NCBI GenBank assembly: GCA_003971905.1
Contig: RSEE01000021.1
Location: 372,001-436,000 of the forward strand
Origin: Moniliella sp. 'wahieum'
Taxonomy: Eukaryota
Reading direction: 5' to 3'
DNA length: 64,000 nucleotides
Shown here: in pieces, positions 1 through 61,362 of the stretch
How positions within the stretch are numbered: the first letter of the stretch is position 1
Layout of the letters: the number at the start of each line of letters is the position of its first letter
The notes under the pieces: model-generated
Seen by the model: only the letters and a program-made list of their open reading frames with translations
Told to the model about the DNA's origin: nothing
Database searches by the model: none
Made by a program: the position numbers and the translations under genes

Positions 1-1169
1 TGGTGAGCCGGTGGACTCGATGTGCTCCGTCACAAGCATCTCCCTCAATTACACTTCTTTCATGTTCCTTTGTCTTGTTGGGCTGTTAGTTACATCTCGT
101 ATCATGCGGGGATAACTGTCTTTTGCGTTTTCGTCTTCTCCTGAGAGAAGTCTCCGAGGAAAACCTGTCAGACCTGATGCAGAGATTGTGGCCCCTGCGT
201 GGTGTGTCTGCGCATTATTTTACCTGTCTGCTTCTCTTGGCTTGGCTTGTTTCTGTTGCCGCGTTACTAGTGACTCTCCGTTTTTTGAATCTCGAAGGTC
301 CCTCCCTCCAACCGTGGATCAGCAATCAGATCTTCATTGCGCCTTGATTACATTTAGTTAGTAATTGCCTACAGACATCAGAAGCCCCTGTTATTCGTCA
401 GGCTGAGAGGTCTGAAGATGTCTGTGCACCCGACAATGTACACCGATGCTCGGTCTTTGCGTTCCATTTGTAACAGCTGTGCTCACTTAGTTGGAGGTGG
501 ACGGCCCCGGTAACGGTGGATAAGGCTCCGACTGTTGAGAAATGTACTCGATATATCCCTCCTCTTCTTTGACTCTGTCGTCCCGCACCTGGAACTGGAT
601 GCGTTGTGCATGGCGTGAGGCTAGTCAATGACTAATGATGGCAAACCGATTATTCATTCAGGCCTCAGGAGTGCGTGTGGTGGTGCTTGTTGGTGGGCGG
701 GGCGGGTAATTGCATCTGGATATTGATTCCAGATGGGGTGAGCGGCGAGCGCGCTGAGCAATGATGCCGGTGATGGTGGACCCAGGGAGCAGGGCGGCAG
801 AGATGGCAGAGAGGGGGTCATGCATGTCAATATTCAATCGATGACGTTGGATCAGATCTCAGATGCGGCCACAATCTGAAAGGTGCACATCCCCCAGACT
901 GGCGCAGTGCGGGGCGGGGCGGGGGCTAGGGTTGGCGTGCTGCGCATGCTGATGGGCATCGAGGAGTGCGGCTGCGTTGATGGCATCGATAGCTGAGATC
1001 AGAGATCTGATAACCGATCCCCGGCAGCTCTGCTCCACGATGCGGCCATCCAATGCCCATCCTCCGCCCGTGCCGGCCTCTTTGCCCGCCGCGTCGGCTG
1101 CGCCTTTGTCCGTCTCGCGTCGCCTCGCCTCCTTTCTCCTCCCCGCCGCCATCTTCCCCCCCCGACGCC

Positions 1170-2879
1170 ATGGCCCATCCCGCCCTCATGACCTGGGCGC
1201 CCCCCGCCGCTCCCGCCCCTGTGGCGTATGCGCCCCCGCCCCCATCCGCCGTCTCTGCCCCGCCCCCGCGCCGAGGACGCCCCCGCGGTCGGCATCAACA
1301 GCGGCCAAGACGACGACACGAGCCAAGCGCAAGCCCGCTTCGTCCCGCACCCCCCAAGCCACGGGCCTGCCCGCCCCCTTTCCCCCCGTGCCCATGCCTG
1401 TGGGCGAGGTACTGAATGCGTTGGCTGGCGCGGTCGCCATGACCGCATCCGTACTCACCGTGCCCCCCCAGCTGCGCCAGTTGTCTCCCCTCTGACCGAA
1501 CTCGATGAGGCGGGGGCGGAGGAGCTGACCCGCTCCAAGCCTGGCCGCAAACCACTGAACGATGTACCGGCTACCCGACGCACCGCACAGAATCGTGCTT
1601 CGCAGCGCGCCTTTCGTGAACGCCGCCAAGCGCATCTTGCCGATCTAGAGGGGAAGGTGAAGCGGTACGAAGCGGAACGTGGAGCGATTGCTTCGCAGCT
1701 TTCCATCCTAGCTCAGCGCGTGAGGGAGGAAACTCCACGGGTGTATGCGTTGGAAACGGCCCTTGTGGCTCGCGACCAAGAAATTTCGCATTGGCAAGCT
1801 CGGTGCACCGACTTGAGTCGGGCCTTGGATGCGGTTCAGGCGGCGGTACGCAACTCGATGCCAGACAAGCCCCCGGTCGCCTCCAGCGAAACCCAGGCCA
1901 GTCTCTCGGCCCTCGGCACCTCCGCGCCGCTCCCTCGAGACGGTCACCACCCCCACGGCTTCATCCACCACCCTGTCCCCCTCGCCGCCTGGGCCGAAGC
2001 GACGGGAGACGGCGAGTGCAATCATGCCAACGGCACTTACCATGCCCAATGGTGGGGTTGGTGTGTGGACCAGCTTGCCTCCGTTGGACGCGCCTGGCGC
2101 CACCGAGGACGGCAAGTGGTGTGGTGGGTGCGTCAAAGGCGGGGAATGTGCTTCGCGGGGATGGGATCATCGACTTTGATGCGGGTGCGCCAGTAGCCGT
2201 CGCCACTGGAACCGATGCCGTGCCACTTCGTCAGAAGCGCAGCAAGGCTTCCGACACAAAACTGTGGTTGGTGCAGCCGTGCAGCGAAGAGGCAACCGTC
2301 GCCCCTGCGAGCGAGGTCCCCCAGTGCTCGGGCGATCCCCGCACCTGTGGTGCCTGTGGTACCGACCCGGGTCTGGCTGCGTTCTGCGAGGCGGTGAATG
2401 AGGAGGAACGAGGTGGAGATGTGCCCGTGGCAGCCCGCCTTGCCCGCCCGCCTAGCCCTTCGGGCGTGGAGGAAGGCGAGCAGGAAGCGTCGGTACCCGA
2501 GGCGTGGCGGCAGCTCCGCTCCCACCCCCACTTTGCCTCCTTTACGCATGACGACCGCGCGGGGCTCAACTTGCTTGCCGACGTGGTGGCTGGCCGGCAT
2601 GCGCTTCTTACCGTCCCAGACGCAGGAAGTGCGCGTGCGAGCTCGTCGGAGCCACTGGCGCGTCGCAAGCGACGCCGGGTCCATGTGGATCGCGATGGAA
2701 TCCGAAATGCGTTGGCGCTCTTGGACAGTGGCGCCTGGCCTGCAAGCCGAGCCACGACACCCCCTTCCCCTACTGCTGCCTCGACCAAGTCGCTGTTGAA
2801 AGCGAATGGACACGGAAGAACGATGTGGATGCTACTCTCTTGCTCCACTACTACTACTGCCACACTGGACACTGCGTGA
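1170..2879 (+). CDS. HapX-like bZIP transcription factor with Cys-rich regions (frameshifted in this assembly)
   Basis: Basic region KPGRKP...RRTAQNRASQRAFRERRQAHLADLE in ORF 1228..2196. Cys clusters WCGGCVKGGEC and CSGDPRTCGACGTDPGLAAFC, and the C-terminal AWRQLRSHPHF (ORF 1791..2879), match the HapX layout. Start at ATG 1170 is inferred. Confidence 0.75.
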
Positions 2880-8113: not shown

Positions 8114-10476
8114 GGGGGGGGGGGAGAGGTGGTGGGAGAGGTGGTGGGAAATGGGGGTGGAAGAGGGGGTGGGAGAGAGATGGCAGGAGAGAGGTGGCGG
8201 AGTGATAGCAGAGAGTGGCAAAAAAAGGCAGGCGGGCGGCGCAGAGGAGAAGCAGCGATGGAGGCGGCTGGGCTGGGGGTGGGGGTGGGAGTGCCGGTGC
8301 GGTGTCCTACGGCGACTGGAGACGGAGCGGCGAGTCCGGAGTGGGGCTACGGAGAGCAGCACCGAGTGAGCAGACAGGATGAAAAGAGGAAACGGGCAAT
8401 GATGATCGATGAATGACGCAACCGCGTCTCCAACCCAGCGCCTGCCGCCGAGAAGAGCGCTGCGCAACTCACAGAGTGCAGCCCAACGCTGGGCCGCAAC
8501 CCTCCAGGCGCAGGACCGCACACGAGCCTAAGCGCCGCGGCGCCAATACGCGGCGCCCAGGCGCTGCTGCTCTCCAGCAGACGCCCCAGCGGCTCTGGGC
8601 TGCTTCTGGGTTGTGAGTCAGATTCTGATTCGGATCTTCCAGCTCGCTTTTGTTTTTTCTCTTTCAAAAGCCGCGGGCACGCCGAGGCCCTGGGCACTCC
8701 ACGGGGGATACGTGGAGTAGTGACTACTGACTACGGCGCTCCGCCCGCACTGGCACCCTGTGGGCCTCAGCCTCAGCGCTCAGCGCTCAGCTCAGCGCCC
8801 CCAGCGCCTCAGCCATGTTAGCGTTCCCGTTGCCAGATACGCCGGCCCCGGCACCGCGCCACACCGCACGCGTCACCCGTCCGTCGCTGGCCGCGTCAAC
8901 GACGCGAACTTTTAACGTTCCCCTGCCCAGCCCTCTGCGTCATACATCGCGGCCCGCCTCCACACTCCACCTGACACTGCCCCCCGCCGCCTGCTTCCCA
9001 GCTCCGAAGCTCCTCTGCCGTGCCAGCCAACGCGCAGCGAAGGCGGCAAACGCCTATGCCGAAAGCCCATGGTATGTGGCCCAATGCATAAGGCCCACGC
9101 CTAACGCCTATAAGACCTACGGCCTAAGGCCGACTAGTAATCGAGTATCAAAGCGCCTAAGATCTAAGACCAAAGGCCGATACAGGCAAGGCAAGGCCAG
9201 GCACATAGGCGGGGCAAGCACACGTAAGCGTGCGAGCCGACTGGCCTGTCGTCTCGCTCCTCTCCCAACCGCCACAGCAGCCCAAGTCGGGCCGGACCAG
9301 CCCGAGGTGATGTGTGAGCGTAGAAAGGCGTGGACACTGGCCGCCTGCCTTCCCTCGCTTTTGATCATCAACATAATATCATCATCACACTGTCATGCAT
9401 CTGCATCAGCGGTCGCATGTTACATCAGACCAAAGCCTACGTATCGTATCGACAGGCAATACAAAGACCCCATTCGCGTGCGATCAGTCGCTGATCAGGG
9501 CGCTCAGCCCCAGAGCGCCTCAGCGCCTCTGCCTTCTCCACAAAGCAGTCGCTCCAATCGTAAATCATGAATCAACAAGCAACGAGCCAATCAACAATCC
9601 TTAATCACCAAGCTTATCCACCGCCCACAGCCCATCCGACTCCGCCTCAGTCACCAGTGACATGTGGCGCCAGTGACATTCACCGGCACTCCCCTCCTCT
9701 CCGGCTCTTCCCCTCCCCTGCGCCGCACGCCGCTGGCCAATTCGTCTTATCGGTTAGCAAGATGGCCCGCTCTCCCTTGTCTTTTTGTCTGTCCCCCGCC
9801 GCGCGCACACCACAGCCCAACCCCACGCAACACAGCGCATGGACAGAGTCGCAACCTCCGCGCTGCAGCTCAGCGCCTCTCCTGCCCCCCTCCCCCACGG
9901 AGCCCCTCGGATCTCACAATCGCACCGTGCATTCGATCACGCTCCTCTGGCGTCAATGCAATCAATATATGTCCCTGGTCTTCATCCGTCCCTCTCATTC
10001 ATCGGTTTAACGTTTACGTTTGCACCATGTGCCCACACACCATCTATCGTGTCGTGAACGTCGATGACGCGACGCAGTATAGACTGATGCACCGTAGCAC
10101 CATCAGTTGCATCAGCGGCCACTGGTCAGCTCAGACAGTCAAAACGACAACCGGGAAAGTCTGCTTGCCAGTAGTTCCCAAGCTCGGTCAGTCACGAGGT
10201 GGACAGGCAGGAGAAGGGGAAGAGGAGAAGTGACGCGAGAGGAGGGAAAAGAGTTTGTGGTGCTATTACTCACTGCAGCGTCAGTGGTACCTTCTAGGTC
10301 TGGGCCTATGCCTAGTACTGTGCCTGTGTCATTGTACCGTGCCTAGTATTATATGGAACTAGCATGCCACGTTGGACGAGCCCTGTGTTGATGTTGAGGC
10401 ACTGTCGCCAGCCGGATTGGCACGCTGGCACACCACACCCAATTAGTTGTACAACTCGCTCCTAGCCGTGGTGAGC

Positions 10477-12602
10477 TCAGACGCACGGACCCACCTCACT
10501 GTCTCCAGCGGCCGTTCGTGAGGTGGTGGCGTAGTTGCATGCGACGGACCAACGCCTCAAGAATGCTTGTGGCTTGCCCCTTGGACACCAGCGGCCGTGT
10601 CCAGGGATAGCGAGTAAATTCGTCGACCGTGACAGGCGCATCGACGTGCCCCTCCCCGCTTGGGCAGGGGATGTCGACCTCCGCGAGGTGGAGGAGAGAG
10701 AAAGTGCGACAGGTCCGCCCTCGGCCGGCCGTCGCTGGTTGGGGGGCGCAGTGACTCGAGATAAGGCACAGGAAGCACAACCCCATGACGACCGTACCAG
10801 GCCAACGTCGCCAAGCGTGACGCGTTCCTCCCCTGGCTCGTCCGACATGAGTACTGAGTGTGCGAAGTTGATTGGGCGATGCATGGTGCCACAGCGCGTG
10901 TGCGCATTCCACACCTTGACCAGGGCTGCATCGATCGTAGTGGGGTAGATGACTCTGGGGGTGGTGCGGGTAGGTGCGAGTGGGCGAGGAAGGGAATAAG
11001 TGGTGTAGTGTCTCCGCAGCGAGACGCTTGGGTTCGCTGCTCTTCGTCTGAGGAAGACAGCTTGGCCGCCGGGAGTGATCCAGCTGCGGATGCCGGCAAC
11101 CGAAAGATGACCTGGTCTGAGGAAATTTGTGGATGACGGGGGACAGTAGAAGCTGTCTTCAGTTAGGAGGATGTGGATAGGGGGTTCGGTTTGCGTGGGG
11201 ACATAACAAAAGACGGTTGCCAGTGCTCTCAGTGTACGTGACTGCCAGTTTGCCACCCGCGACAGGCGCGCGGTGAGGACGAAGATGGATAAACGCACTT
11301 TGGTTGTTATTGAATACAGATGGCTGGACGCCTGCTGAATCGTGTCGCGCAATAGGCTGGTTTACTGGACGGGCACCCCGTCTCGTTCGGAATGATCGCT
11401 GCGGGGTGCAGAGGTGGTAGGTATCGCAGCTACGGCCTGTGCCGACTAAGGGCATGTGACCCGACTGAACCGACGGCGACAGGAGCTGCCGCGACAAGGG
11501 CCAAGCCCGCACTGCCCGCGATGGGCTCCGTTTCCGCTCGTTGAGATGCGCACCGTGGTTATGGAGGGAGCAACAGTCGGGGGGGGCGGACGTCGGCGCT
11601 GCCGTGGCTCGATCGCCACAGGTAGCATTATCGAGCTTGCTTACAGCCTTGCATAGAGATCGCTTTAGCCATTCCTGGTCTGTGACCCCCCCCACTCAGC
11701 ATATGGGCGCCAGCGGAGCTTTGTCCAGCTTGATCGTCGAGGTTAGCTCGAATTGGGACAGCTGTGGTAAACTCGTTTATAGGTATTGCCGACCGGGTTG
11801 GCACCCATTGAGGTGAATCACCTTGCTTAACAGATTATGCAGCTCCCGGTCAGAGGCGGTGCCATACAAGTCACGCAGTGCGTGAGAGTATGCCGAGCCA
11901 AGAGCCGGGTGTCGGCCTGAATGTGGCCTGCGTAATAACCTCATTGTCCATCGACGGGAGCAAGATGTTGGCCAGATGAGCGTCCAGGCTTGTTGTATCC
12001 ATTCAGGGCTCTACCTTGCTCTAGATGTTCACGCGCTCGTGGGATGATCCTAAGCCGGGGAACGAAAAGTGTAGTTCATATATGGAAAACGAACCATGAA
12101 CATGCAGTTGCTCGTGGTAGGGAAAACCACAGGACGAATGGCTTCGCGGATGAGCTCAGTGTCAGGGTTATGGTCCCAAAGGGTTCTTGTAGTGGCTTCA
12201 AGTTGGCCTCGAGGGACAGACGGCAGCCTCGCCAGCACGTCGAGTCGATGGAAACCCCGTGTGAGAGGTAACAAGCGGTTGCTGGAATTGCTCCAGGGTG
12301 AAATGCGAATACTGGAAAGGGGAAACGGGGCGAAGGACAAAACTTGGCAATGTCGAAGATGTCGGCCAGGACCCCGCCCGGTCCCTGGGAAGCTGATTGC
12401 AACTTCGGGATGGTTATCCGCGATGTGTGCGTGATGGCGACGACTTGTGCGGAGCGCTTGTCGGGGGCGGGAGTGATTGAGGGGTAGGTATGGAGAAGTC
12501 AAGGCTTTCTGGTGAGTGTGAAGGCACACGGATTTCGATTGTAATTTTTGTTAGACAGAAGAAGTCAAGGTATTGGAGAGAAACCTCTGGAGAAGTAGAC
12601 AA
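10477..12602 (-). CDS. Possible hypothetical protein in fragmented ORFs
   Basis: Chain of overlapping minus-strand ORFs (12414..12602, 12076..12402, 12050..12529, 11159..11695, 10477..11352) with protein-like composition but no recognised motif. Confidence 0.3.
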
Positions 12603-13200
12603 TGCAACGCGGCGATGGTGGTAGGTTGAAGTTGAGGTCTAAGGCTAAGGCTAAGACCCTCATGCAACACCGTGAAGAGACAAGGAATTGAATATGCCGG
12701 GAGATACGTGTAGGTTTCTGGGAAGCGAAGTTAAGAAGGGGCAAAAGGGGGATAATCGATAAGGCGCCAAGCGTGGTCTGCGTACGCCACCGTAACAGCT
12801 TTCGACGGCATCAACACCTGGGCTGTGATCTGTAACTGGCATTGTTTCCCCCGGCGAGAGCCACCTGTCGCACTAGTAGGCTCCTACGTTCCAACCTCAA
12901 GCCATTCCTAACCGTTTGGGAGTGCTGCCCTTTATTACTCTTGTGTTGCGCTTGCCCACTTCCCTCCCTCGAGAGTAGTTATCAATCGACCTAGAATGAG
13001 TGCGAGAAGGGAGAGCCGAATCAGATGCGTGAAACAAGAAACAGGCACAAGCAGGCGCTGACATGCGGAGCGCCAGCATCAACAACCGCGTTGACCGAGA
13101 GGACAATAGCGACATAGCTCTCTGACACAAAGGCATATCTTCGGCCGCTCCATCCTACCTGGTTACAGCACCTTAGCCTTTATGCTCGCTTTGCACCTCC

Positions 13201-14780: not shown

Positions 14781-15827
14781 TGGGATGAGAGGGCGTGCGA
14801 GGGGGCGGCGCGGCTGGGGCGAGAGGGAGGAGAGGAGAGATGAATCAAGAAGGCAAAAAGATGAGGGGGAATGAAAGACCCGAGAGGAGAGGCGATGAAG
14901 ATGAAATGAGGTGCGAAGGGGATGGAGAGTGAATAGCGGGACGAGGGCGACTGGGCGAGTGAGCTGCAGGGGTGAGGAGAAGGAGGGAAGGGGAAAAGCA
15001 GAAGGCAGGGGGGATGAAGACAACCAAGAGGGGGTCCTCTCCGTCAAGAGAAGAAAAGCGAACTGCAGCCATGCCGTATCGATTATGGACGGTCGATTAT
15101 CGATCAAGTGTGTGGTGTGACATGTGACATGTGGCATGTCAAACGGAGGATGGGCGGTGTCGATGGTCGATGATCTCTTGCGCGGCCCAGAGCGCCACAG
15201 AGCCCACCCCGAGCGTCCGCGGATCCTCCATCATCGGTTGGTACTCAGTACTCCCGAACGGGACCGAGTCAGTCCAGGTCGGAGCACGGAGTGTCAGTCT
15301 CAGTCTGGGAACTCAGCCTGCCCATGGGAGTCCGAATACAGAGACTCTGTGCTCGGTTGCCCAGCACCGGCAGGCTGTGTGGGGACTGCCCCCGTGGCTG
15401 CGCTGCCTGCGCTCGCACTTCGCATCTGTGTCTGGGCCATCGATGACATGTGACACATGATGCATGACGCGGCTTACACTGCCGCACCGCTGCTGTGCGA
15501 CGAGGGACAGCGTGCTTACGGCATGCGCCTGGTCGTATGAGGACAGAGTTGCGTGGCCATCTGTATTCAATCACCTGAGCCTGTAGCCAGCTGGCTCCTC
15601 CAGACCCACCGTGCTGAATCGTCCCACTATCCCCGCCACAGGCAACCACCCTCCCACCCTCCCACCCCCTGGCCAATCCGCCCTCGCGCATTCGCCCGCC
15701 ATCACTTGATTGCTACGCGGCTAGTCCCTCCTTCCCGCCGTATCACCTCACACCGAGCAGAGTAGCCTACAGCGCCTGGGGTTCATTTCGATAGAGTCAG
15801 GCCAGCGCCGGGCAGCACCGCTCGCGC

Positions 15828-17762: not shown

Positions 17763-18174
17763 CCGCCGCCAGCCACTCGCAGCGGCGCAGCACCACACTG
17801 CCCCCCTGCTGCCCCGGCGTGCGCCTTACGTGAGCAGCCTGGCTTAGAAATGGGCCGCAGGCACAGCGACGACGCCAGGGGCAAGCAACCCTACTGTGTG
17901 TCAGCAGCTGCGCCCTCTGTTCGGTGCACTGTCCGGCGCTCGCCCCCAGTAGTGCAGCCTGGTCGTCGCACGTCGCGGGAGGAGACGCTTGCCGGGCTGC
18001 GATCGATCAACAATCTGATCCAGCGCGTCCTGCTGGCAGCCCGTCTGCTTCTGGCATTCTACAATGGCAGCAGACATGTGGGAGGCATCGTAACGCGTAA
18101 ACGCTTTTCTTCTTTTCTTTGTGGGGATGCTGGCTGCCGGGGGAAGCTGAAGCCAGACCAGACCAGATACATAC

Positions 18175-19598: not shown

Positions 19599-20435
19599 CC
19601 TCTCCCCACGTTGAAATCAGAGGCCAGAGGTGGCGGAGATATGGGCAGGTGGTGGTGGTAGTCCAGTGACTAGACTTGTCTTCGCCATCCTCCTCGGGGC
19701 GGCCTTGGGCCCCCCGCGTACCACACCGCACCACGTGGCCGGTTCTGGCATTCCAGCTCCGGCCCAACCCTACTGCAGATGGCACGTGACATGTGACATG
19801 TGACCGCCACGGCACCGTTCTTGCTCTATGGACAGGCGATCAGTGACGATCACCGCTCAGGCCGGAAGAGCGGCAAAGGGGAACAAAAGCTCACGATGAA
19901 GAGGTCTGTTTTTTACCCTCGTGACCTGGTACCGGGGTTACCGGTGGCACCTCACTAACAGCTTTAAGGGCTTTCGCGGAAACGCACCTACAATATATGG
20001 GCCACACACAGTGCCTTGTGTACAGCGATGAGTTTGCAGTGTCTCTAGTAGTGAGAGTGAAGACGTGGGACGAGGAGAGATGATGCAGGGTTGTACGGAA
20101 GGCTATTATATATTCCACGAGAGGAGCCCACATATTATAGGGCGCAACAAGGACAGTGGCGGAGTCGGATAGAAACAGCGTCGAAAGTGATGTGTAATAG
20201 GATCAGGTAGCTACATGCGTGAAGGGGCTGACAAAACAACCAGCTTAACGAAACACGGGATTGGAGGGAGGCGGGATCTACAGGGGAAAAAATAAACACA
20301 GTTGCCAACCACAGAGCTAGTCACCTGCAACTCACAAATGGGCGGTAATCGCGTCGCAGGACCAAGTCTTGCCCCGCTCTTCATCCCACAGACCTTCGCT
20401 GAGAAGCAAGCCATGAACATGCTCATCCGGGTCGG

Positions 20436-21892: not shown

Positions 21893-22898
21893 GGGTGTGA
21901 GGTGTGGGTGTAGGTGTGGTAGGGGCAATGGAAGGAGGGGTCGCAACCGTCGAGATTGGGTGGGCTGCTCTCCAATAATATGCCCAGCGCCGTTCCAGGG
22001 CGTTTGTCCTTTGCCCCACCCCTGCGCGCAATAAAGCACCCCAGTACAGCAGGCGGCTCGTTCCCTGTTGCTCGTTACGTAAATGCTTGGTACCTGGGTA
22101 GTCAGCGCCAGCCCAACAAAAAGGCCAGAGAGAGGCGTGTGGCCACCCACGCCCACCGCGGCCGCGCAAAATACCTTCCCACGAGGCTGGCCCGCGCCAT
22201 TCCGCGCACGTGGGAACCTTGCGGGAAGCGAGGGTCCCTTGGGCCCAAACTACTTCAAGCATCACCCTCAAGATTCATACTTCGCACGTGATACTGTGAT
22301 GCCATCTCTCACAGCTGTGGACCCATTCATGGCTCTGGCTTCCTCCTGGCCGTACTGAGTGTCGCCAGCGCATCCATAATTTCCTTCGCTTTACGGCTCT
22401 TGACGTTGAGAGGAAAACAAAGGCAACTGTATAACGGGATGGTACGAAAGAAGGAGTACATTTTGATAGGTGTTTTTGATGGTAGGAGTTCCTTTGAGAC
22501 CAAGGATAGAATCAAGGGTTCTAACAAGAAGCGGTCCCACCTGGCAATATTGCGGGACCAGCGCACCTGCATGGGAAGGTGGTGAGAGGCGGATGGGGTA
22601 ACCGAGGGGTAAATCGAAATGGAAGGGATAGGCAGCAGAAGGAATGTGAAAGCAGAGTTGAGAGTTGAGAACGTTGAGATGGTAGGTGTCGATCAAGTCG
22701 GAGCGAAACAGCGTACAGCCGCCATGGTCCGAGCACAATGAAGGGAAACAGTCGAGAAAAAAATCGACGATCGGGACGAATCAAGGAAGGGATTAGGGGC
22801 TCTAGACCCAAGGATCGTTTATATCCGAGCTCGGCTTCACCTCGAGCCCGTGGTGCAGTGTGGGGCATGTGTCCGCATCGGACTTCTCCAACTTGGAC

Positions 22899-29448: not shown

Positions 29449-29886
29449 GAGGGTGGTGATGGTGTGGGAGGGGGTCGGTTGGGTGGTACATCCTTATACA
29501 CCCTTACACTCTATCCAGTCTGGCGTTGGCGCCTGCACCAGGAGCCTGCTATTGGCAGCAATAAGCGCTAAGCTGCCTCACAAAGTGAGGGGCAACGCGG
29601 CGCAGGCGCAGCAGGCGACGGACCGCGGTGGCGCCACCCGCCCCGGTGTTGCACCGACCGGGGCCATGCAGGTGGCTGAGCTCAGCAGGCATGCTGCCGC
29701 ATCATGCATCGTCATCACCGATCGCCCGAGGCGATGGCGGGGCGGCGAGGCATGGCAGGTGGATGAGGTCAGCAGGCTGTGGCGCAGAGCACGGCAGCGC
29801 AAAGCAAAGCCCAGCAGGCAGCAGGCTGGCGCGCGTTTGCGGCGACGCACCACGCAGCCACCGCCATCCCCAGCGGCGTCCACGCC

Positions 29887-45960: not shown

Positions 45961-46720
45961 GGTAACCGGTAACCGGTAACCGGTAACCAGCCATCGATAG
46001 TCCTGCCACCCACAGAGTAGAGGAGGGCGTAGGCATACACTGCGTGCTGAGCCTGAGCCTCCAGGTGTCTCAGATCCCAGATCCCAGATCCCCAGATTCT
46101 GAGATCTGAGATCTCACACTCGATGCCAGGTTTTGTGCCAGTGCCTGCCTCTGACGTGAGCATGTCGGAGTCCGAACTTGTGGGAGGCATGGCACCCTGC
46201 GTGGCGAACACGGTGGGTGAATTGGATCGAGGGCAGCGTGCCGTTGCCGATTCGGTGGGTACCATCCCTTACATCCGGCATCGATGCATGATATCATGCC
46301 GATCATCCATCACACATCGCTGTGACATGTGACATGTGACACGGCCATGTGCGTCTGCGACAGGCCCTGTCCGTCCCAGCCTGCACCAGCCTGCACCCTC
46401 CCAGCGTCACGCGTCACAGCATGACGCAGCCGTTGGGCATGTGGGTACTGCCTCGATTTGTTCAGGGGCGAGGTGGAGATGCGGCGGATACTGTTGATGT
46501 TGTTGTTCGTAGGCTGAGCGCTGAACAAGCCCGTCGTCTCGGCCGAGGCGCGGGGCGGGATGCTTGGGCTGTGAACGTTGTGAACGCTACTGTTGAGGCT
46601 TAACATGTAACACCTGATGTCCTATTGGAGCTTGAAGCTTGAGCTTGACCCCCGATCGATCAATGATCGTCGATGCAGAATACCCATGGCTGCCATGCCA
46701 TGCGACGTGAGATCTGAGAT
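45961..46720. repeat. Cluster of 7-bp-period micro-arrays upstream of the FAM72-like gene
   Basis: (GGTAACC)4 45961..45988, (TGTGACA)3 46321..46341, TCTGAGA units at about 46097..46112 and 46706..46719, CTTGAAG at about 46630. Confidence 0.88.
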
Positions 46721-46882: not shown

Positions 46883-48219
46883 ATGCCTTTCTCATCCCCT
46901 GTCCCCCCTATGCCCCTTGGCCCTGGGTGCGAGGAGGCTCCCACCCATGTCGAGGTTCCCCTCATCCACCCGCCCGCACTCCTAACAAGGTCAAACGTAT
47001 CTGATGCTGCCGCCTCAGAGCAGCCTCAATGGCCCCCCTCGGCTCACGCCGTGTCCACTCGGCTCCATCCTGGCAACTTTGACCACAATCAGTCTTTGCC
47101 TCCCCTGTCCGCACCCGTCTACTCGCCCGCCCCATCAAATCTGTCCACATTACCGGCCTCCGACCATGCTCCCGCCTCGATGCACCCTGAGTCCTCCATG
47201 TTTCAACTCGCTGACTCCTTTCCTTTCCCACCCTACCCACACCGACGCCTGCTGAGTCGACAGGACAAGGCCAATCAGCGTCAAAACGTCTACATTGTTC
47301 GCTGCATCCAGTGTGACAGTTTCTTCACCGACCGAGGAATGAAGGCAGTGCTGTTGCTCAAACCCCATGTTACACTTTACAGTACGGACGCAATACCCAA
47401 CAATTGCAGTGCGGTTTATGCCCCCGAACCCGCACTAGGTCAATCCACGTTGCATTGCGGAGCGCCTCAGGAGCGGTCGTGTCGTTGCCCTCACCCAAAC
47501 GCTCGGATGCAATGGCTGCGGGAATGTGGTAGGGTACAACGTCATCTCGCCTTGTCCCAAATGCAATAACAACATTGCCAGGCACACTCAGGGCACGAAT
47601 GGGTACGCGACTTATTCTTCCTTTCTTTTTCCACCCGTCTTCTCACACTCATCTTGCGCATCATTACAGACACCGGATCGTTTTCCATTCCTCGGAAATT
47701 CGCATCCACCCAAGACGCTATGTGCCCGGCGACCGAGGTGTAAATGCGATGGAAGTGCCAGTCCGCCTCAAAATGTTACTGCAAGAACAAGCGGACCTGA
47801 CTTCTAAGCTCCAGTACTTTCCTGCTTCATCGTTGTGCTTCGAAGGAGCCAGCGTGGAACCGTCTGAGGACGGATTCATTTCCCTTCCAGCACCATGCTG
47901 GCAGAGTCAGCCGGGAATCACTTCAGACTCTCTGCAGCAACGACTCTGGATGGTCAACCGAGTTCTGCGCCACCACTACATGTGGCTACTCAAGCAATTC
48001 CATCATGGCGCACGCATCATCTTAGCTGGTGAGCCAGTGTATTGGTCGGATATTGATTACGAAGGAGGAGACCGGACGCAGCCCTTTGACTCCGAGGAGG
48101 CCCTCCCTTTTTGCTCTCCTGACGGTTGCGGGAATCGTCTGCACTATTCTCACTGGCCCTCAGGCCTCAGCCTCCCTCCTCCCATGTTCCCTGGCCCTTT
48201 TATCAGTGGCCACACATGA
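46883..48219 (+). CDS. FAM72-family (Yippee-like zinc-binding) protein
   Basis: VYIVRCIQCDSFFTDRGMKAVLLLKPHVTLYSTDA, TLGCNGCGNVVGYNVISPCPKC, TNGHRIVFHSSEI. Intron 47603..47669. Confidence 0.85.
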
Positions 48220-50061
48220 CTGCCCGCGTTGTACATTATTTCTACATACTTCGTTCTCGAGTCTTTTGCCCCTCCGCCCATAGTATCACTGACGGTCATC
48301 GGCGAGGTTCCAGACGTGATGGATCCTTCCCCCAGCTCTGTATCTTTGTCTATTCACCATCATGCTGTATCTTTTCCTATACTGCCCACCCTGCCCCTGT
48401 TCTCTTTCATCGTCTATTCTGTTCTGTGTCCGTCGTTGATGCATCCCTTATAAGCGTTAGCGATCGTGTTTCTCGTCCTCTCTCAAGGAAATGAGCTATA
48501 TCCTTTTTCTACCGAACCATTTACAACCCCGCGTCTAGTACTATAGTATACTTCCCTCTCCCGCATTTTGTGTTGAAAGCTTGCCTGGGGACGGTTACCG
48601 GTTCTCGACCATCATAAGAGATAGGAGAGATGCGCGTGGCTGAGCGGCGCTGATCCCACTTCCATTTCGGTTCTCTGCCTCGCCCCCACCTCGCATTTTT
48701 CTTGACATGCTCTGCCTGGCTCCATGTCCTCTCTGCTTCCGCCCGTCCCCTCACCATATACAGAGGAGCGGTTGTACCGCTTTTCCCGTCCTTCACTCGA
48801 CTCGTTTTCTCTCCACTTTCTGAGCCTCAACTGTCACAAAATGGATCTACGATCACGCTGATGCCTTTCGGAGGGCAGCTTCGCTCCCTTTGAAAGAGTT
48901 TGACGAGAAACACACACAGTCCTATCTCTTGCCAGACCTACGTTTTACCCACATAATAGAAAAAGGGTATTGGGTATATAATACCCGTATAGGAGAGCAA
49001 AACAAAATGTTTCTCGTCGAAGGCAACAGAGCTCACGGTGGCTTTTTGACCCTTCTCTGTGGCCATCAGAAGTTGTCAATGTCATCTCGGATCATTCGAT
49101 CATTGTCTTGCGTCACGCGTCATTTCTCTTTCTCTCTCGGATATATTCATCTTTGTGAACAGCCACACAGAGCATCGGGTGATGCGTCTTCGACGGTTTC
49201 AACAGTGCTCAGTTTTGACCTTAGCCATGGGCTTTTCAGGCCCTTAACGCCGGCCTCATGTGCATCGGCATCTGAGACCTGAATCTGCTGTCACATGTCA
49301 AGAATCGAGAATGTGCAAGGCTATTACGCCATGGTGGAGGGGGAAGAGGGACTCTCTTCTGATCGAATCGATGGCCAACACACGATGCATAACGTTTGAT
49401 GTATGACGCGCATGACGCATGATGCGTGATGCGATGTGAATCTGAGATTGAGATCGATGGGTTGGATGAGATCTGAGATGGACGATGTCGATGAACACGC
49501 GAGACCGAATGGGCCTTTGTAATGCTTTAACATGCAGCTTGACGCTTGAGCTTGACGTGTGAGTACTGTGAGTACTGAGTAGCTTTACTACTGCAACTGT
49601 TTGGCAGCTTGAAGCTTGCCACTTGACATGTGACATGCATGTGACATGTGACATGCGACGCGTGACTGGGACCAGTGACCGAAAAGCCATGTCTGTGCCG
49701 GCACGTGCTTCGGCTTACATACGGGATCGGGTGACTTGTGTGGTCACCGGTTACCGGTCACCGATCAACTTAATCAAAGAACTTAATCAAAGACCATCGT
49801 GGTCACCGGTTAGATCTCGGATCTCTCCGAACGATCTGAGTCCTTCTGAGCCTGCCTCAGGTACAGACAGACGCTCAAGACGTTCAACGTTCAGGCGCCG
49901 ACGGCTCGCCAATAAACGTCAAAACATGCACCGAGTACTGAACTCGGAACGCGCTGGCGCTGAATGTGGTTGAACGTGTTGAACGATGAACACGTCCAAC
50001 TTTGACGTCGTTGGACGCGAGAGCTGACGGACATGAAGCGCGAAGAGGGACAGCAAAGAAT

Positions 50062-50996
50062 GATGAGACCTGGAGTCCAGATGGTCCTCGAGGGTGATGC
50101 AATCGCACTGGTGGGTGGTGGTCTAAGCCAACCAGCAACGCCTACAGAGGACATCATCCATCAAGCAGCGAGTCGCCACAGGGGCTATAAGCTGCTGAAC
50201 AAGGAAAAACAGGAGAGAAAACAGAACTTCCAGGCATGAGGAGGAACTGAAGGGACTTTGGCCAAAGCACGAGCCACCTGATGGCTCAACAAAGAAATAT
50301 ACATACTGGTGCCACAATGGGCCTAGAAAGAGGATGCCAGAGCGGAAATCCTGAAATATGAGGGCTGTGAGCGGTCGGGAGAGGCATCGTCTGGCCACGG
50401 AGTCTTCGATATATAGGGGTCCTGCTGGCGATGGTCGACAAGAAGAAAGAAGAAGAAGACATAATGTCTTGTGATGAAATTAAACAACACAGGGGATCGA
50501 TCCAGATCATGCATCATGACCCGTGTGCATGAATCCCAATGATTAATGACTACGTCGCCACTTTGATGTGCGCGCGCTCAGGCCTCAGGCCCCTCAGGGC
50601 TCTCAAGACTGAGGCTGAGCTGAGCCAGGCTGAGCTGCTGAACGCATCATCTTAGGCCGATCGCATCAATCCACCTGTAACCCAATTAACCGCGTCTGGA
50701 CAGGCGTATTCTATGGCGCGCCGGGGCACACTACGGCACGAAAGTAAGACACTTCTGATGATCGAGATGAGATCTGGAGTCGTGATGCATGATGTCCTTG
50801 AGACGGTGATGCAATCGCACTATAGTAGTGGTGGTGGTCTAAGCCACGCAAACGCCTACAGATCACAGAGGAACATCAAGCAGCCAGTCGCCGCTGGGGG
50901 CTATAGGCGGGGGAACAAGAAAACAGATGCGAGAAAGCAACAGAACTGCTAGGCCTGAGGAAGACTGAAGGGACCTCGGCTAAAACACACGAGCCA
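50062..50996 (+). repeat. Diverged direct duplication of about 220 bp (50062..50276 and 50766..50996)
   Basis: Shared collinear blocks GATGAGA.CTGGAGTC, GGTGATGCAATCGCACT, GTGGTGGTCTAAGCCA, AACGCCTACAGA, CATCAAGCAGC, GGGGCTATA, ACAGAACT, ACTGAAGGGAC, CACGAGCCA. Confidence 0.9.
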
Positions 50997-51810
50997 TCAC
51001 CGGCATCACCCACGATGCTCCCAACAACTTATTCGACAATCCCTTGAGTGTACCTCCATGGGTGAGGATACGTTCAACGGTCAACGTTTACGCTATTAAA
51101 ACGCGGCAATAATAACCGTAACGCGTAACGCCAGGCCCCATTGGCTGCTGCTGTATGGGATGGTTTGATTGTGGGGCAGAAAAAAAGGGAATGGATACCG
51201 CCTGGAAAGGGAGGTCTTCTGCATCAAAAGAGGAGGGCAAACCGGGCGGAGGCAAGACTCAGGCGGACGAGGACGGGAACGGACGAGAAAACTGGAGACG
51301 CGGTGATGGTCGTCGTCACCACCACCGAGGTTCTGGGAGCGGAGGGGGGAGGGGGGGCGGGTGCCGTCTCTGAGACGTAAGAGTTGGGAGACCCAGAGGC
51401 TGGGGGTTGGGGGCTGGGGGCTGGGAGCTGGCGCTGCGGTCGTCTGGGCGTGGAGCTGCGAAAAGCAGAGTGGGCTGTCCTTGTGGCGGAATCGCAATCA
51501 CGCAGGGGGCGCATGGCACTGCCCCTGTGCGCCCTGGCCCGTAGCCCCACTGCCGTCATTAATCATTAATCATTTACGTATGCGCGGGCGCAGCCCGCGG
51601 CTACCAAGCACGGGGCCATGTGGCCGCTTGCTCCCACTTTGGCCGCTGCGGACACCACAGGGAATCTTCCGCTTCAGCGCCTCCTCTGCCACGCCCGCCG
51701 GTCCTGCTGCTCTGCTCCTGCTCTGCTCCTGGCCCCACATCCCCCCCGTCACGGCCGCTGCTGCCCTCGCCCCCTCCACGACTGCCTTGCCGCCCCTCCG
51801 CCCATCCGCC

Positions 51811-55592: not shown

Positions 55593-56686
55593 GATGAGCC
55601 GTGCGCTTGCTACCCCGTACACTTTTCTTCACTCCTTTTTTTGTTGTCTTCTTTCACCTCTTCAACGATATCCTCTCTCCTCACGACCCTTCCAGCTCCA
55701 GGTACACCACCACTCGAAATCGCTGATCCTTCAAAACTCGACTGTTGGCACGATCTACCCTTTTCTTTCCACTGGTTCTACCTTATCAACCATTTTGTCG
55801 GGGCACATCTCTCCTCAATTATTCCATCTGCTCGTCCCGTACTTGGTCTTGCTTCGGCCAACTCGCTTTTGTGCGGCCTTTCTTATTGGGCCCTAGCAAT
55901 TCACTGTAACCCCAACCCTGGGCCCGCTATGTGCTCCCTCGCCCTGGGTTGGGTTGAATGTCCTTGCACCATAACCCTGCCCATCTCTCCTTATTGATCG
56001 GTTTTGCCCCGCTCTCATTGTCCTGCGTTTGACTCGGGCCTGCACCCTCCTACCTTTCTGGCCCTCTCCCAGAAAGCTCTGCCCCTCTTTAAGTTCCGGT
56101 CAGTTCGGGTTGGCTAGCCGCCTTCCCCCCTACGCCACCTGTTCCCACTTGCGGACAGCCTGACATAGTCTTTGTTCGTTCCGTCTTTCCATTTCCCAAT
56201 GTCTGGGATAACTAGTAACTAGTAACTCTAGCACCGCGCTGATCGCGAGACCCAGCCCATAGTGCATGCATATGAACGGTGAACGGTGAACGTTAAACAT
56301 TAAGTGCTGTTGGAAGAAAGTTTGGGGGGGGTCACACGTCAGCCAGCAGCGGTAGCTTCCTTCCCTGGCCATTCTGTCACATGTCAACTTAAGACTAGCT
56401 GCAGCTTCAATCAATGCACATAGTTCGATAGACATCCAGCCCGTTCGTCACCGCATCCACCCAAGTAAGTTGGTTGCCCTATTGAGTTGACATCAAAGAG
56501 GAGGAAGGATGCGTGGAAGAGGGTGGCGAAGAAGCAGGGGAACGGGCCGAGGAGGCGTTCGCATATACAGACGCAGAAGCCGAGGGGAAAAGGCAGGCCA
56601 ACCCATAGGAATAGGGAAGAATGGACTAACGTCATCGGAACACCTCTGGATCCAGGCTCCGTTCCATACCAGGTGCCAAAGCCGGA

Positions 56687-60467: not shown

Positions 60468-61362
60468 GGGGGAGAGGCAGCCAAGGGGAGGCGACGGTCC
60501 GTCTCATCCTCCAGCCTTGGCCCAGGCAGAAGCTTCTGCCGTGGGAGCTTCTGCCGGCAAGCGCCCCAAAGGACGCCGCAAGCAAAGTGAAATTGCAACG
60601 AGCGGTTGCACCGAACACGTGACTGCCCCCTCCAGGCTGCGTCGTGCTGCTGCGTCCGTGCCCCGCCTGGCCGTTCCTATGCGCCACCACCCCACAGTCC
60701 CATCCCAGTGCCATCGGCTGATGCGTATCTCCCCATACCGCCACCGGCCTAGGCCTGCTTGGGCCCAGAGGGACGAGAGGGTGGGTACCGCCAGTGGGTT
60801 GCTAGAATCCAAGATTATGGATCGAGCGATCGCTCGTCTCGCCGCGTCTGGTTTAGCCGGCGGGTTCGGATGGATGGATGATGCAATGTGCGATGAATCT
60901 GGGAGCTGGAAAGTGGAAGGTGGGAGCGGATGGCAACCCGCCGAGACGATACTGAGTATAGACGTTGATATATTGATCGTGGACGCTGAGCGCTCGCAGC
61001 CACTTCTGTCGGAGCCGCCATATACTTGCCCTGTGCCCGCAGCCAATGCCTCCCCCTGAGGCAGATGGAATAAGTATAGCCGAAGTGCGGCTGCCCGCTT
61101 CAAGCTTCGTCTTCATCGATCATCTCGATCATCGAGATCATCCGGCTGTCTCGTCCCAACACAGCCAATCTCTCCCCGAGTCTGGCCAGGGTGTGGCTGG
61201 GGGCGGCCTGCGCTGTCTGCCGGAAGGCGTCGCCGGCTGAACTGGGAGCGTCGGCTCGCGTGTCGCCTCGGCCTCTCGGCTGCCAACAAACGCCTCATCT
61301 CCTTCCCCCTGCACCATCCTCGCGTTCTCCATCCCCACCACCTCCACCACCTCCCCCCCCCA

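What the first reader, a model, noticed from the sequence alone, without database searches (positions are those of the whole stretch)
825..61140. Window-wide sequence-independent +7 bp palindromic footprint rule at TNA sites in intergenic DNA
SEEN: intergenic regions carry many short arrays of period 7 whose sequences differ but share one rule, abTNAxy -> abTNAxy-y'x'TNAxy (or its mirror), giving an A-NNNN-T palindrome at each junction. Examples: AATATT 825..838, AGATCT 850..863, AGCGCT 8771..8791, ACATGT 15116..15136, AACGTT 25155..25168, AAGCTT 25194..25228, ATGCAT 25848..25868, ATCGAT 25899..25919, AGTACT 26403..26416, ACCGGT 45961..45988, AGGCCT 50576..50589, ACGCGT 51117..51130, ATTAAT 51554..51574, ACTAGT 56207..56227. 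That is 14 of the 16 possible hexamers. The outer flank often does not fit the palindrome (gaTAACT-AGTAACT, cgTCATT-AATCATT), so two bases at the junction are new and are the reverse complement of the adjacent bases. Simple slippage does not explain that. I noticed none inside conserved CDS, where +7 would frameshift. KNOWN: hAT/Transib transposases and RAG leave hairpins on flanking DNA, and hairpin opening adds palindromic (P) nucleotides; P-superfamily elements such as Galileo make 7-bp target duplications. INFERENCE: these are cumulative scars of a recurrent nuclease or transposon insertion-excision cycle (7-bp stagger centred on TNA, hairpin or fold-back repair) that acts in open promoter DNA. 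No single transcription-factor motif explains the diversity. I do not know of a description of this pattern, and no responsible enzyme is visible in the window.
Basis: partly seen in the sequence, partly recalled or inferred. Interest (0 to 1): 0.88.

Follow-up and report, generated by a model that had tools for sequence, protein, structure and literature searches.

The report
Seven-base palindromic scars at TNA sites
The DNA between genes of this smut-related fungus is peppered with one repeated kind of small insertion (7 extra bases at T-any-A sites, with a 2-base mirror-image junction), which looks like the healed wounds left by a jumping gene or a related DNA-cutting enzyme that has not been identified.

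Summary
The 12-base rule TNAxy-y'x'-TNAxy, or its mirror, occurs 96 times on the two strands. Dinucleotide shuffles give 0.2-0.3, and every other core gives 9 or fewer. The hits fall at 56 loci and represent at least 73 events at 58 TNA sites. Fourteen of the 16 A-NNNN-T palindromes are used. Only period 7 is enriched. The scars avoid coding DNA.

About 20 loci are bare 12-mers, which slippage cannot make. Compound arrays can be derived by applying the rule repeatedly to one original TNA.

I found two further classes. One is a +9 class: the full 7-mer abTNAxy, 2 palindromic bases, then the full 7-mer again (11 of 12 TNA-centred cases). The other is a single +11 case with both palindromic dinucleotides. 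Together these show a 7-bp duplication centred on N plus 2 P-nucleotides.

This is what hairpin-capped flanks opened 2 nt from the tip and then end-joined would give. The best reading is excision scars of a cut-and-paste element with a 7-bp target duplication, or of a transposase-like nuclease. No element or transposase lies in the window. No genome or reads were available. Seven literature searches found no description of the pattern.

The parts
658..669 (.). +7 scar, bare 12-mer, junction palindrome AGGCCT
8401..8412 (.). +7 scar, mirror form, ATCGAT; upstream of the first Met (8113) of the minus-strand frame
8772..8791 (.). +7 array (2 events), AGCGCT
9157..9169 (.). +7 scar at a TAA site, AGATCT
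10005..10016 (.). +7 scar, mirror form, at a TTA site, AACGTT
10848..10859 (.). +7 scar, AGTACT
12751..12762 (.). +7 scar, mirror form, at a TAA site, ATCGAT
15116..15133 (.). +7 array, ACATGT; starts just after a Met (15137) of uncertain status in an unconfirmed minus-strand frame
15444..15467 (.). Two adjacent TGA sites, each with one +7 scar (ACATGT and ATGCAT)
18089..18100 (.). +7 scar, mirror form, at a TAA site, ACGCGT
19786..19804 (.). +7 array, ACATGT, upstream of the Sec61-like gene
22654..22679 (.). Perfect 7-bp duplication of a TGA-centred 7-mer, followed by a +9 scar (spacer = reverse complement of the left dinucleotide)
25156..25168 (.). +7 scar, AACGTT
25178..25193 (.). +9 scar (full 7-mer, 2 palindromic nt, full 7-mer) beside the AAGCTT array
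25196..25229 (.). Longest +7 array: 4 events at one TGA, AAGCTT
25529..25557 (.). Compound array from one TCA: two mirror events that use the left flank (ATGCAT) and one event that uses the right flank (AAGCTT)
25678..25691 (.). +7 scar, AAGCTT
25849..25870 (.). +7 array (2 events), ATGCAT
25901..25927 (.). Two adjacent TCA sites: two events with ATCGAT and one mirror event with ATGCAT
26079..26091 (.). +7 scar at a TAA site, AAGCTT
26234..26249 (.). +9 scar
26403..26414 (.). +7 scar, mirror form, AGTACT
26425..26436 (.). +7 scar, mirror form, ACATGT
26603..26632 (.). +7 array with ACGCGT; later copies differ by CG-to-CA and CG-to-TG changes (decayed units)
26964..26982 (.). +7 array (2 events), ATGCAT
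27283..27303 (.). Compound array from one TGA: one mirror event (AACGTT) and one right-flank event (AATATT)
27519..27530 (.). +7 scar, AAGCTT
29562..29573 (.). +7 scar at a TAA site, AGCGCT, between the VHS/SH3 gene (minus strand) and the ELMO gene (plus strand)
33417..33428 (.). +7 scar, mirror form, ATCGAT
37148..37159 (.). +7 scar, mirror form, at a TAA site, ATCGAT
44216..44231 (.). +7 scar, AGATCT
45353..45365 (.). +7 scar, mirror form, ACCGGT
45961..45988 (.). +7 array (3 events) at a TAA site, ACCGGT
46098..46114 (.). +7 scar, AGATCT; directly downstream of a (CAGATCC)x3 variant array at 46071-46092
46321..46341 (.). +7 array (2 events), ACATGT
46404..46417 (.). +7 scar, ACGCGT
46513..46524 (.). 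+7 scar, mirror form, AGCGCT
46570..46585 (.). +9 scar (spacer = reverse complement of the right dinucleotide)
46601..46612 (.). +7 scar at a TAA site, ACATGT
46629..46642 (.). +7 scar, AAGCTT
46708..46720 (.). +7 scar, AGATCT
48158..48170 (.). +7 scar, mirror form, AGGCCT; near the 3' end of an unconfirmed open frame
49110..49122 (.). +7 scar, mirror form, ACGCGT
49289..49300 (.). +7 scar, mirror form, ACATGT
49467..49479 (.). +7 scar, AGATCT
49558..49581 (.). +9 scar (49558-49573) overlapping a +7 scar (49569-49581), AGTACT
49624..49655 (.). Two ACATGT +7 scars joined by the only +11 scar (49629-49646), in which both 2-nt palindromic additions are kept in series
49880..49893 (.). +7 scar, AACGTT
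49969..49984 (.). +9 scar
50506..50518 (.). +7 scar, ATGCAT
50538..50549 (.). +7 scar, mirror form, ATTAAT
50577..50598 (.). +7 scar with AGGCCT (50577-50591) followed by a +9 scar (50583-50598) on the same TCA site
50783..50794 (.). +7 scar, ATGCAT
50995..51010 (.). +9 scar
51117..51131 (.). +7 scar at a TAA site, ACGCGT
51556..51574 (.). +7 array (2 events), ATTAAT; 6 nt upstream of the first Met (51580) of the kinase frame
56209..56227 (.). +7 array (2 events) at a TAA site, ACTAGT
56375..56386 (.). +7 scar, mirror form, ACATGT
61113..61142 (.). Three events on one TCA site: one +7 scar (ATCGAT), then two +9 scars that use the left and the right dinucleotide respectively; upstream of the first Met (61590) of the frame

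Best explanation
Each scar records one event at a site abTNAxy.

Inferred steps:
1. The site received a 7-bp staggered cut centred on N, and the 7 bp were duplicated. This is what happens when a cut-and-paste element integrates.
2. The intervening DNA later left, and the two flanks were sealed as perfect hairpins.
3. A host nuclease nicked each hairpin 2 nt to the 3' side of its tip. This gave a 4-nt self-complementary 3' overhang on each end: xyy'x' on the left and b'a'ab on the right.
4. End joining then aligned the two overhangs on top of each other. One is kept and the other is lost, either by trimming and fill-in or by replication of the 4-nt heteroduplex.

The product is abTNAxy-y'x'-TNAxy or its mirror abTNA-b'a'-abTNAxy. 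The length change is always +7, because (7-2)+4+(7-2)=14. Less often both duplicated 7-mers survive with one palindromic dinucleotide (+9) or with both (+11).

A new scar duplicates the TNA, so later hits lengthen the array.

Shown by the sequence: the 7-bp duplication, the 2 templated palindromic bases, the TNA requirement, the restriction to non-coding DNA, and repeated hits.

Inferred only: hairpins, the host nick at +2, and a mobile element as the source of the cut.
For: - Strength of the rule: 96 hits against 0.2-0.3 in shuffles. Only core TNA and only period 7 are enriched.
- Bare 12-mers share only 5 repeated bases and have unrelated flanks, so the two junction bases are new and are templated from the neighbouring dinucleotide. 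The spacer is exactly y'x' in 50 of 67 TNAxy..TNAxy pairs on the plus strand and 46 of 62 on the minus strand.
- The two mirror forms are equally common, 50 and 46, as a symmetric two-ended process predicts.
- +9 class: of 12 repeats of a TNA-centred 7-mer separated by 2 nt, 6 have a spacer equal to the reverse complement of xy, 5 have the reverse complement of ab, and 1 has another spacer. Spacers of 1, 3 or 4 palindromic nt give 1, 0 and 0 cases. Among 56 non-TNA-centred 7+2+7 repeats, 7 look palindromic, and 3 of those are rotations of one TNA event.
- +11 class: one case with both dinucleotide palindromes in series.
- Compound arrays at 25529, 27283, 25901 and 61113 are derived exactly by applying the rule to one original TNA with its own left and right flanks.
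- Collapsing the scars gives 73 events at 58 sites: 47 hit once, 8 twice, 2 three times and 1 four times. These 58 are among 825 TNA sites lying within 300 bp of a scar. No consensus extends beyond T.A.
- Decayed copies with one mismatch occur at every pattern position, 4-16 per position against at most 2 in shuffles. They include CpG-type transitions. The scars are therefore old and real.
- Published chemistry: hAT, Transib, RAG1 and a MULE leave hairpins on the flanking DNA, and these are opened by host enzymes and joined by NHEJ (PMC5499845, passages). Ac/Ds footprints in yeasts carry P-nucleotide palindromes (PMC5873905, passages). hAT7 and Kyakuja elements of basidiomycetes make 7-bp TSDs (PMC12730594, passages).
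Against: - No element with terminal inverted repeats flanked by a 7-bp nnTNAnn duplication lies in the window (0 found). No long inverted-repeat pair looks like a transposon.
- No transposase Pfam domain was found in 232 ORF submissions. These covered 227 of the 242 ORFs of at least 110 aa. The other 15 overlap the PLC, MAPK and ELMO genes and were not scanned.
- About 1.1 events per kb of window is very dense for excision scars in what looks like a compact, repeat-poor genome.
- Experimental hAT footprints are heterogeneous: 28 types among 128 excisions in PMC5873905. Here one outcome dominates. My searches cannot see deletion-type outcomes.
- Perfect 7-bp duplications of TNA-centred 7-mers are rare, at about 4 candidates. 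This requires that hairpins are almost never opened at the tip.
- One of the 11 +9 cases (57561) lies in the conserved ELKLLK kinase motif of a Hog1-like gene and is a coincidence.
- That the scars are insertions rather than some other change has not been verified against an outgroup or reads. None was available.
Confidence: 0.6

Rival explanations
1. A host-encoded nuclease produces the scars, with no mobile DNA ever residing at the site. It could be a domesticated transposase or another enzyme that cuts with a 7-nt stagger at TNA. It would act repeatedly in accessible intergenic DNA. The 7 bp are duplicated by fill-in. The 2 palindromic bases come from hairpin formation or from turn-around synthesis at the filled ends.
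For: No element and no transposase were found in 64 kb. The density is very high and long-lasting: 7% of nearby TNA sites are hit, and decayed copies exist. The outcome is stereotyped.
Against: I know of no nuclease with a 7-nt stagger, hairpins and TNA specificity outside transposases (recall only). Filling a staggered cut predicts perfect 7-bp duplications as the main product, and these are rare, at about 4. The sequence cannot distinguish this from a transposon that has since been lost.
Confidence: 0.2
2. Template switching or fold-back synthesis produces the scars during repair of a TNA-specific nick or break. There is no transposase-type hairpin. The polymerase copies 2 nt of the opposite strand and returns 5 nt upstream.
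For: The palindromic dinucleotide is templated from adjacent bases. Such switches are known to create palindromes (recall).
Against: Template-switch products vary in length, yet here only period 7 is enriched, with a minor +9 and +11. The +9 class needs the full 7-mer twice, which a 2-nt switch does not explain. There is no pre-existing complementarity at the bare sites.
Confidence: 0.08
3. The arrays are selected clusters of transcription-factor binding sites, or ordinary 7-bp microsatellites that grow by replication slippage.
For: The arrays sit in long upstream regions. Some units recur: the ACATGT type gives 16 of the 96 hits. The (CAGATCC)x3 array at 46071 shows that a unit lacking the T can also be iterated.
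Against: Fourteen different palindromes occur, and there is no consensus beyond T.A. Bare 12-mers with only 5 repeated bases cannot arise by slippage. Compound arrays switch palindrome exactly as the flank rule predicts. Non-TNA period-7 tandems are no more over-represented than period-6 or period-8 tandems. A metagenome control selected for a (TGACATG)x3 array shows no TNA excess.
Confidence: 0.05
4. Assembly or sequencing artefact.
For: No reads could be laid on the window, so this has not been excluded directly.
Against: The scars avoid coding DNA. They exist in decayed forms, including CpG-type transitions. They show site-specific histories. I know of no artefact that adds a flank-templated palindrome only at TNA.
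Confidence: 0.03

Closest known systems
Ac/Ds (hAT) excision footprints explained by the flank-hairpin model
   Same: Both copies of the target duplication are retained. Short palindromic (P-nucleotide) additions are templated from the flank, and the ends are joined by host end joining (PMC5873905 passages; PMC5499845 passages).
   Different: Ac/Ds duplicates 8 bp, and its palindromes are centred on the complement of the base next to the element. Here the duplication is 7 bp and the palindrome is even-centred with no flipped base. Ac/Ds footprints are heterogeneous, whereas here one +7 product dominates. No element is known for this case.
P nucleotides at V(D)J coding joints (RAG) and Transib transposons
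   Same: Perfect hairpins form on flanking DNA (PMC5499845). By my recall, they are opened a couple of bases off the tip, which gives even-centred palindromic additions of about 2 nt.
   Different: The RAG/Transib target duplication is 5 bp (recall), against 7 bp here. This is a fungus, and no RAG- or Transib-like gene was seen in the window.
hAT7 elements of rust fungi and Kyakuja elements of Laccaria
   Same: Both are cut-and-paste elements of Basidiomycota that make 7-bp target duplications (PMC12730594, passages).
   Different: They are reported from Pucciniomycotina and Agaricomycotina, not Ustilaginomycotina. Their target consensus and footprints are not given in the passages or in the one supplement file I searched. 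No such element or transposase lies in the window.
   Same: A 7-bp target duplication (recalled; not checked in any call).
   Different: By my recall, P-element excision leaves long 3' overhangs and no flank hairpins, and Galileo's target consensus has A.T, not T.A, at the centre. Neither point was tested here.
PIF/Harbinger and IS5-type elements
   Same: Insertion at T-N-A-like trinucleotides (recall). Canonical Harbinger makes 3-bp duplications (PMC12730594).
   Different: A 3-bp duplication predicts TNATNA scars, and these are not enriched: 38 against 28 for ANTANT, and 76 against 67.5 in shuffles.

Membership tests
Excision footprints of cut-and-paste transposons with flank hairpins | Both copies of the target-site duplication remain at the empty site | tested here: met
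   The +9 class holds the full 7-mer twice: 11 of 12 TNA-centred 7+2+7 repeats, one of them a coding coincidence. The +7 class keeps 5 + 7 bases of the two copies.
Excision footprints of cut-and-paste transposons with flank hairpins | Added bases are the reverse complement of the adjacent flank end (P nucleotides) | tested here: met
   The spacer equals y'x' in 96 of 129 TNAxy..TNAxy pairs at spacing 2. In the +9 class the spacer is the reverse complement of xy or of ab in 11 of 12.
Excision footprints of cut-and-paste transposons with flank hairpins | Resident element copies with terminal repeats, flanked by the same kind of duplication | tested here: not met
   Zero candidates with a 7-bp nnTNAnn duplication and at least 11 of 14 matching termini in the 64-kb window. 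No genome was available.
Excision footprints of cut-and-paste transposons with flank hairpins | A transposase gene in the genome | not testable with these tools
   None in the window. No whole genome is held.
hAT superfamily, Ac-like | 8-bp duplication with consensus nTnnnnAn (consensus recalled) | tested here: not met
   The duplication is 7 bp, with T and A at positions 3 and 5.
hAT superfamily, Ac-like | Footprint palindromes centred on the complement of the base next to the element | tested here: not met
   The palindromes are even-centred (A x y | y' x' T), with no flipped central base. The feature is as stated in PMC5873905.
hAT7 / Kyakuja (7-bp TSD elements of Basidiomycota) | 7-bp target duplication | tested here: met
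   The family feature is taken from PMC12730594.
hAT7 / Kyakuja (7-bp TSD elements of Basidiomycota) | Family-specific transposase and termini | not testable with these tools
   No element in the window and no genome.
Transib / RAG | 5-bp target duplication (recalled) | tested here: not met
   The full 7-mer is duplicated in the +9 class. A 5-bp model also predicts TNATNA by-products, and these are not enriched.
PIF/Harbinger | 3-bp target duplication | tested here: not met
   The period-3 design gives 76 against 67.5 in shuffles.
Slippage microsatellite | Whole-unit iteration of a pre-existing repeat | tested here: not met
   By my reading of the list, about 20 of 56 loci are bare 12-mers that repeat only 5 bases. 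There is also core specificity for TNA.

The most novel reading that the evidence does not exclude
The scars are not relics of a selfish element. They are the ongoing output of a host-retained, transposase-derived hairpin nuclease that cuts TNA sites in accessible intergenic DNA with a 7-bp stagger. It keeps writing new 6-bp palindromes and 7-bp arrays into promoters, acting as a built-in mutator of regulatory DNA. A related open possibility is that the TNA rule reflects the hairpin-opening nuclease rather than the cutter. In the model both nicks fall immediately 5' of a T that lies three bases from the hairpin tip.
Probability: 0.2. Interest if true: 0.9.

Novelty: new variant of a known kind. 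Interest (0 to 1): 0.78.

Why it matters
If the reading holds, this window preserves a very dense and clean natural record of hairpin-mediated DNA breakage and repair. At least 84 events in 64 kb all obey one rule.

- It gives an in vivo readout of how a basidiomycete opens DNA hairpins (2 nt off the tip) and joins incompatible overhangs.
- It defines a searchable mutational signature: nnTNAnn, +7/+9/+11, with a flank-templated palindrome. That signature could reveal past activity of an unknown 7-bp-duplicating element or nuclease in other genomes.
- It shows a mechanism that repeatedly creates new 6-bp palindromes and short arrays in upstream DNA, which is raw material for regulatory change.

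About 1% of the window's bases appear to come from this process.

Tried and rejected
**Data sources that gave nothing**
- Whole genome: none is held.
- Sequencing runs: none was listed for 44000-52000, so I made no read check and no strain comparison.
- Earlier findings of the scan: none for this genome or its relatives. A word search returned only bacterial heptamer-hairpin repeats, which are a different phenomenon.
- Metagenome fishing with a (TGACATG)x3 pattern: 120 loci, 492,501 bp. Apart from the seed arrays there are 20 other TNA+7 loci, 13 of them pure A/T, and no TNA excess over other cores. No relative showing the phenomenon was recovered, so I used the set only as a control.

**Models considered and rejected**
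- 3-bp duplication (Harbinger-like): TNATNA is not enriched.
- 5-bp duplication plus 2 P nt (Transib-like): it is asymmetric about TNA, it predicts +3 by-products, and the +9 class contradicts it.
- 8-bp hAT with a 1-nt offset nick: it predicts odd-centred A-n-T palindromes, which are not the observed form.
- 9-bp duplication with a 2-nt offset: it predicts a 2-nt non-palindromic spacer.
- Long fold-back (4 or more P nt): this would put the complement of N in the second copy. Ten-base palindromes starting with T number 10 of 64, with no excess. Only 1 such case appears among the N-mismatch variants.
- One P nt plus a 1-nt deletion: the second spacer base matches the original flank base in only 4 of 16 cases, which is chance level (my count from the list).

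**Other negative results**
- Preference for already palindromic targets: by my reading, flank extension of single scars is at about chance level.
- Seven literature searches found no description of this pattern. They covered only open-licence PubMed Central papers and bioRxiv preprints.
- The hAT7 supplement I searched gives consensus sequences but no target-site data.

Full report
**What the window is**

The window is eukaryotic, with about 58% G+C and few long open frames. Its genes include a PI-phospholipase C, several protein kinases (one Hog1-like), a bZIP factor, ATP synthase alpha, Sec61, an ELMO protein and a CSL/LAG1-type factor. For one kinase, the best named relatives are from Tilletia, Tilletiaria, Ceraceosorus and other Ustilaginomycotina, at about 52-54% identity. 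Unnamed relatives reach 77%. The source is therefore a basidiomycete of the smut lineage, probably an Exobasidiomycete without a close named genome in that collection. No whole genome is held. No sequencing run could be listed.

- Period: there are 49 perfect period-7 tandems, against 5 for period 8. Of the 49, 26 have a unit of the form TNAxyy'x'.
- Core: written as a 12-mer, TNAxy-y'x'-TNAxy or its mirror y'x'TNA-xy-y'x'TNA, the rule is met 96 times. Dinucleotide shuffles give 0.2-0.3. No other core exceeds 9, and the palindrome-compatible control cores ANT, CNG and GNC give 1, 1 and 0.
- Spacing: among TNAxy direct repeats, only spacing 2 stands out. With the palindromic spacer required, the counts for spacer lengths 0-4 are 10, 8, 96, 0 and 0.
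- Palindromes: 14 of the 16 A-NNNN-T types occur.
- Outside control: 492,501 bp of unrelated metagenome contigs, chosen only because they hold a (TGACATG)x3 array, show no TNA preference. TNA gives 21 hits, against 5-23 for the other cores.

**Where the scars lie**

The 56 loci cluster in a few long non-coding stretches: 25.1-27.6 kb, 44.2-46.8 kb and 49.1-51.6 kb. Others lie just upstream of genes.
- Four of 56 fall in crude coding segments that cover 33% of the window.
- One of 56 falls in a Pfam-supported ORF. These ORFs cover 30% of the window.
- Of those five loci, three lie upstream of the first Met. Two lie in frames whose coding status is unconfirmed.

My gene map is crude. It rests on codon usage trained on six long ORFs plus Pfam hits, so I can claim "non-coding" but not "promoter" in every case. 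The pair at 56.2-56.4 kb may lie between two gene ends.

**What the minimal event is**

By my reading of the list, about 20 loci are bare 12-mers. Five bases are repeated, the two bases between them are the reverse complement of the preceding two, and the outer flanks do not continue the period. Slippage cannot produce that.

The requirement for A is absolute in practice. There are 105 hits when the third base is A, and 1-2 for each other base. The first T is present in 96 of the 105.

Compound arrays are especially informative. At 25529 one TCA, with its own left and right dinucleotides, has produced two units built from the left flank and one built from the right flank. At 27283 one TGA has done the same. 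At 25901 two adjacent TCAs each carry their own scars. No point mutations need to be assumed, only repeated application of one rule.

Collapsing every scar removes 511 bp in 73 steps. It returns 58 TNA sites, of which 47 were hit once and 11 more than once.

**Two new classes fix the geometry**

I asked what else a two-ended hairpin process would leave, and found two more classes.
- **+9 class.** The full 7-mer abTNAxy is followed by 2 bases and then the full 7-mer again. Of 12 such repeats whose 7-mer has T.A at its centre, 6 have the reverse complement of xy as spacer, 5 have the reverse complement of ab, and 1 has something else. Palindromic spacers of 1, 3 or 4 bases give 1, 0 and 0 cases. 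One of the 11, at 57561, encodes the conserved ELKLLK kinase motif and is a coincidence. The other ten are non-coding.
- **+11 class.** At 49629 both palindromic dinucleotides are kept in series.

The duplicated unit is therefore 7 bp with N at its centre, and the added bases number 2 per end.

**Mechanism**

The simplest process that yields all three classes runs as follows.
1. A 7-bp target duplication forms.
2. Both flanks are sealed as perfect hairpins.
3. Each hairpin is nicked 2 nt to the 3' side of its tip. This leaves two 4-nt self-complementary 3' overhangs.
4. The ends are joined.

The three outcomes depend on how the overhangs are handled.
- If the two overhangs are laid over each other, the top strand reads abTNAxy-y'x'-TNAxy. 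The bottom strand, read in the same sense, gives abTNA-b'a'-abTNAxy. Trimming one overhang and filling in, or replicating the 4-nt heteroduplex, gives one or the other product. The length is always 14, a gain of 7.
- Keeping both 7-mers and one palindromic dinucleotide gives +9.
- Keeping both dinucleotides gives +11.

This accounts for several findings at once:
- the single dominant period;
- the equal numbers of the two mirror forms, 50 and 46;
- the apparent replacement of two bases;
- the lack of TNATNA excess and of long palindromes;
- the rarity of perfect duplications, at about 4 candidates.

The hairpins, the +2 nick and the manner of joining are inferred. Only the products are seen.

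Published work supports the individual steps. hAT, Transib, RAG1 and a MULE form hairpins on the flanking DNA, which host enzymes open and NHEJ joins (PMC5499845, passages). Ac/Ds footprints in Candida, budding yeast and plants carry P-nucleotide palindromes, and the Artemis-related Pso2 protein is implicated in opening them (PMC5873905, passages).

**Which enzyme**

None is visible. I found no transposase domain in the ORFs scanned. I found no inverted-repeat element with a TNA-centred 7-bp duplication, and no transposon-like repeat.

The scars differ from Ac-type hAT footprints in three ways: 7 bp rather than 8, T and A at positions 3 and 5, and palindromes that are even-centred rather than centred on a flipped base.
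- The chemistry is RAG/Transib-like (nick at the border, by my recall), but the duplication is not 5 bp.
- Basidiomycete elements with 7-bp duplications do exist. hAT7 occurs in rust fungi and Kyakuja in Laccaria (PMC12730594, passages). Their target preference was not given in what I could read.
- KDZ elements of Cryptococcus make 8-bp duplications (bioRxiv 10.1101/2024.08.15.608186, passages).

**Age and intensity**

One-mismatch versions of the 12-mer occur at every position, 4-16 per position against at most 2 in shuffles. Some array units differ by CG-to-CA or CG-to-TG changes. The ratio of one-mismatch to perfect copies suggests, by my rough calculation, scars a few per cent diverged on average. 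This points to long-running activity, not one burst.

Of the 825 TNA sites within 300 bp of a scar, 58 (7%) carry a perfect scar. There is no further sequence preference: N is G or C in 81% of scarred sites and 74% of background sites. Repeated hits can therefore explain most arrays. Slippage may add to them; see (CAGATCC)x3 at 46071.

**What remains open**

- Whether a mobile element was ever present, or a host nuclease cuts directly.
- Whether the TNA rule belongs to the cutter or to the hairpin-opening nuclease. In the model both nicks fall just 5' of a T three bases from the tip.
- Whether the process is still active.
- Whether relatives share it.

Direct proof that the scars are insertions needs an outgroup or population data, which I could not obtain.

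Seven full-text searches found no description of this pattern. Subscription journals were not covered.

**Verdict**

- The mechanism belongs to a known kind, hairpin-type excision footprints. It is a new variant in its geometry (7 bp, TNA-centred, even palindrome), its uniformity and its density. The responsible enzyme is unknown.

Noticed in passing
window 57315-58097 (minus strand), repeat at 57561-57576: This is a Hog1-type MAP kinase gene. Its conserved ELKLLK motif happens to be encoded by a 7+2+7 repeat that mimics a +9 scar. It shows that single pattern hits inside CDS can be coincidences.
   Followed up: yes
window 46071-46092: (CAGATCC)x3 lies directly upstream of a normal AGATCT scar. 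The unit looks like the scar unit with its T replaced by C, yet it is iterated three times. Either slippage acts on scar arrays, or the process tolerates C-N-A sites.
   Followed up: partly
window 26603-26632: The ACGCGT-type array has spacers that read CG, CG, CA, TG, TG. These are CpG-transition-like changes between copies, which may hint at cytosine methylation or deamination in this intergenic region.
   Followed up: no
window 25213-25244 and 49606-49637: Two distant upstream regions share an 81%-identical 32-nt arrangement, with an AAGCTT-type scar array followed by an ACATGT-type array. This is either chance convergence of scars on similar underlying promoter words or a shared regulatory module.
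   Followed up: no
window 39808-40284 and 41943-42558: There are tandem repeats of about 128-131 bp (60-77% identical copies) and a 435-bp-spaced 181-nt repeat, inside or near the long ORF 41295-42671, which has no Pfam match. This is probably a repetitive protein.
   Followed up: no
window 4547-4606 and 7700-8300: (GGAATGG)n and G/A-rich 12-mer arrays (GGGGGTGGGAGA-like) are ordinary purine-rich microsatellites. They do not follow the TNA rule.
   Followed up: no
A few of these contigs also hold one bare TNA +7 or +9 word: L064, L078, L057, L080, L049 and L066. Overall there is no TNA excess.
   Followed up: partly
window 49403-49418: A 7+2+7 repeat has a palindromic spacer, but the 7-mer is not TNA-centred (core G-N-C). 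It lies in the densest scar region and may be a rare off-rule event.
   Followed up: no
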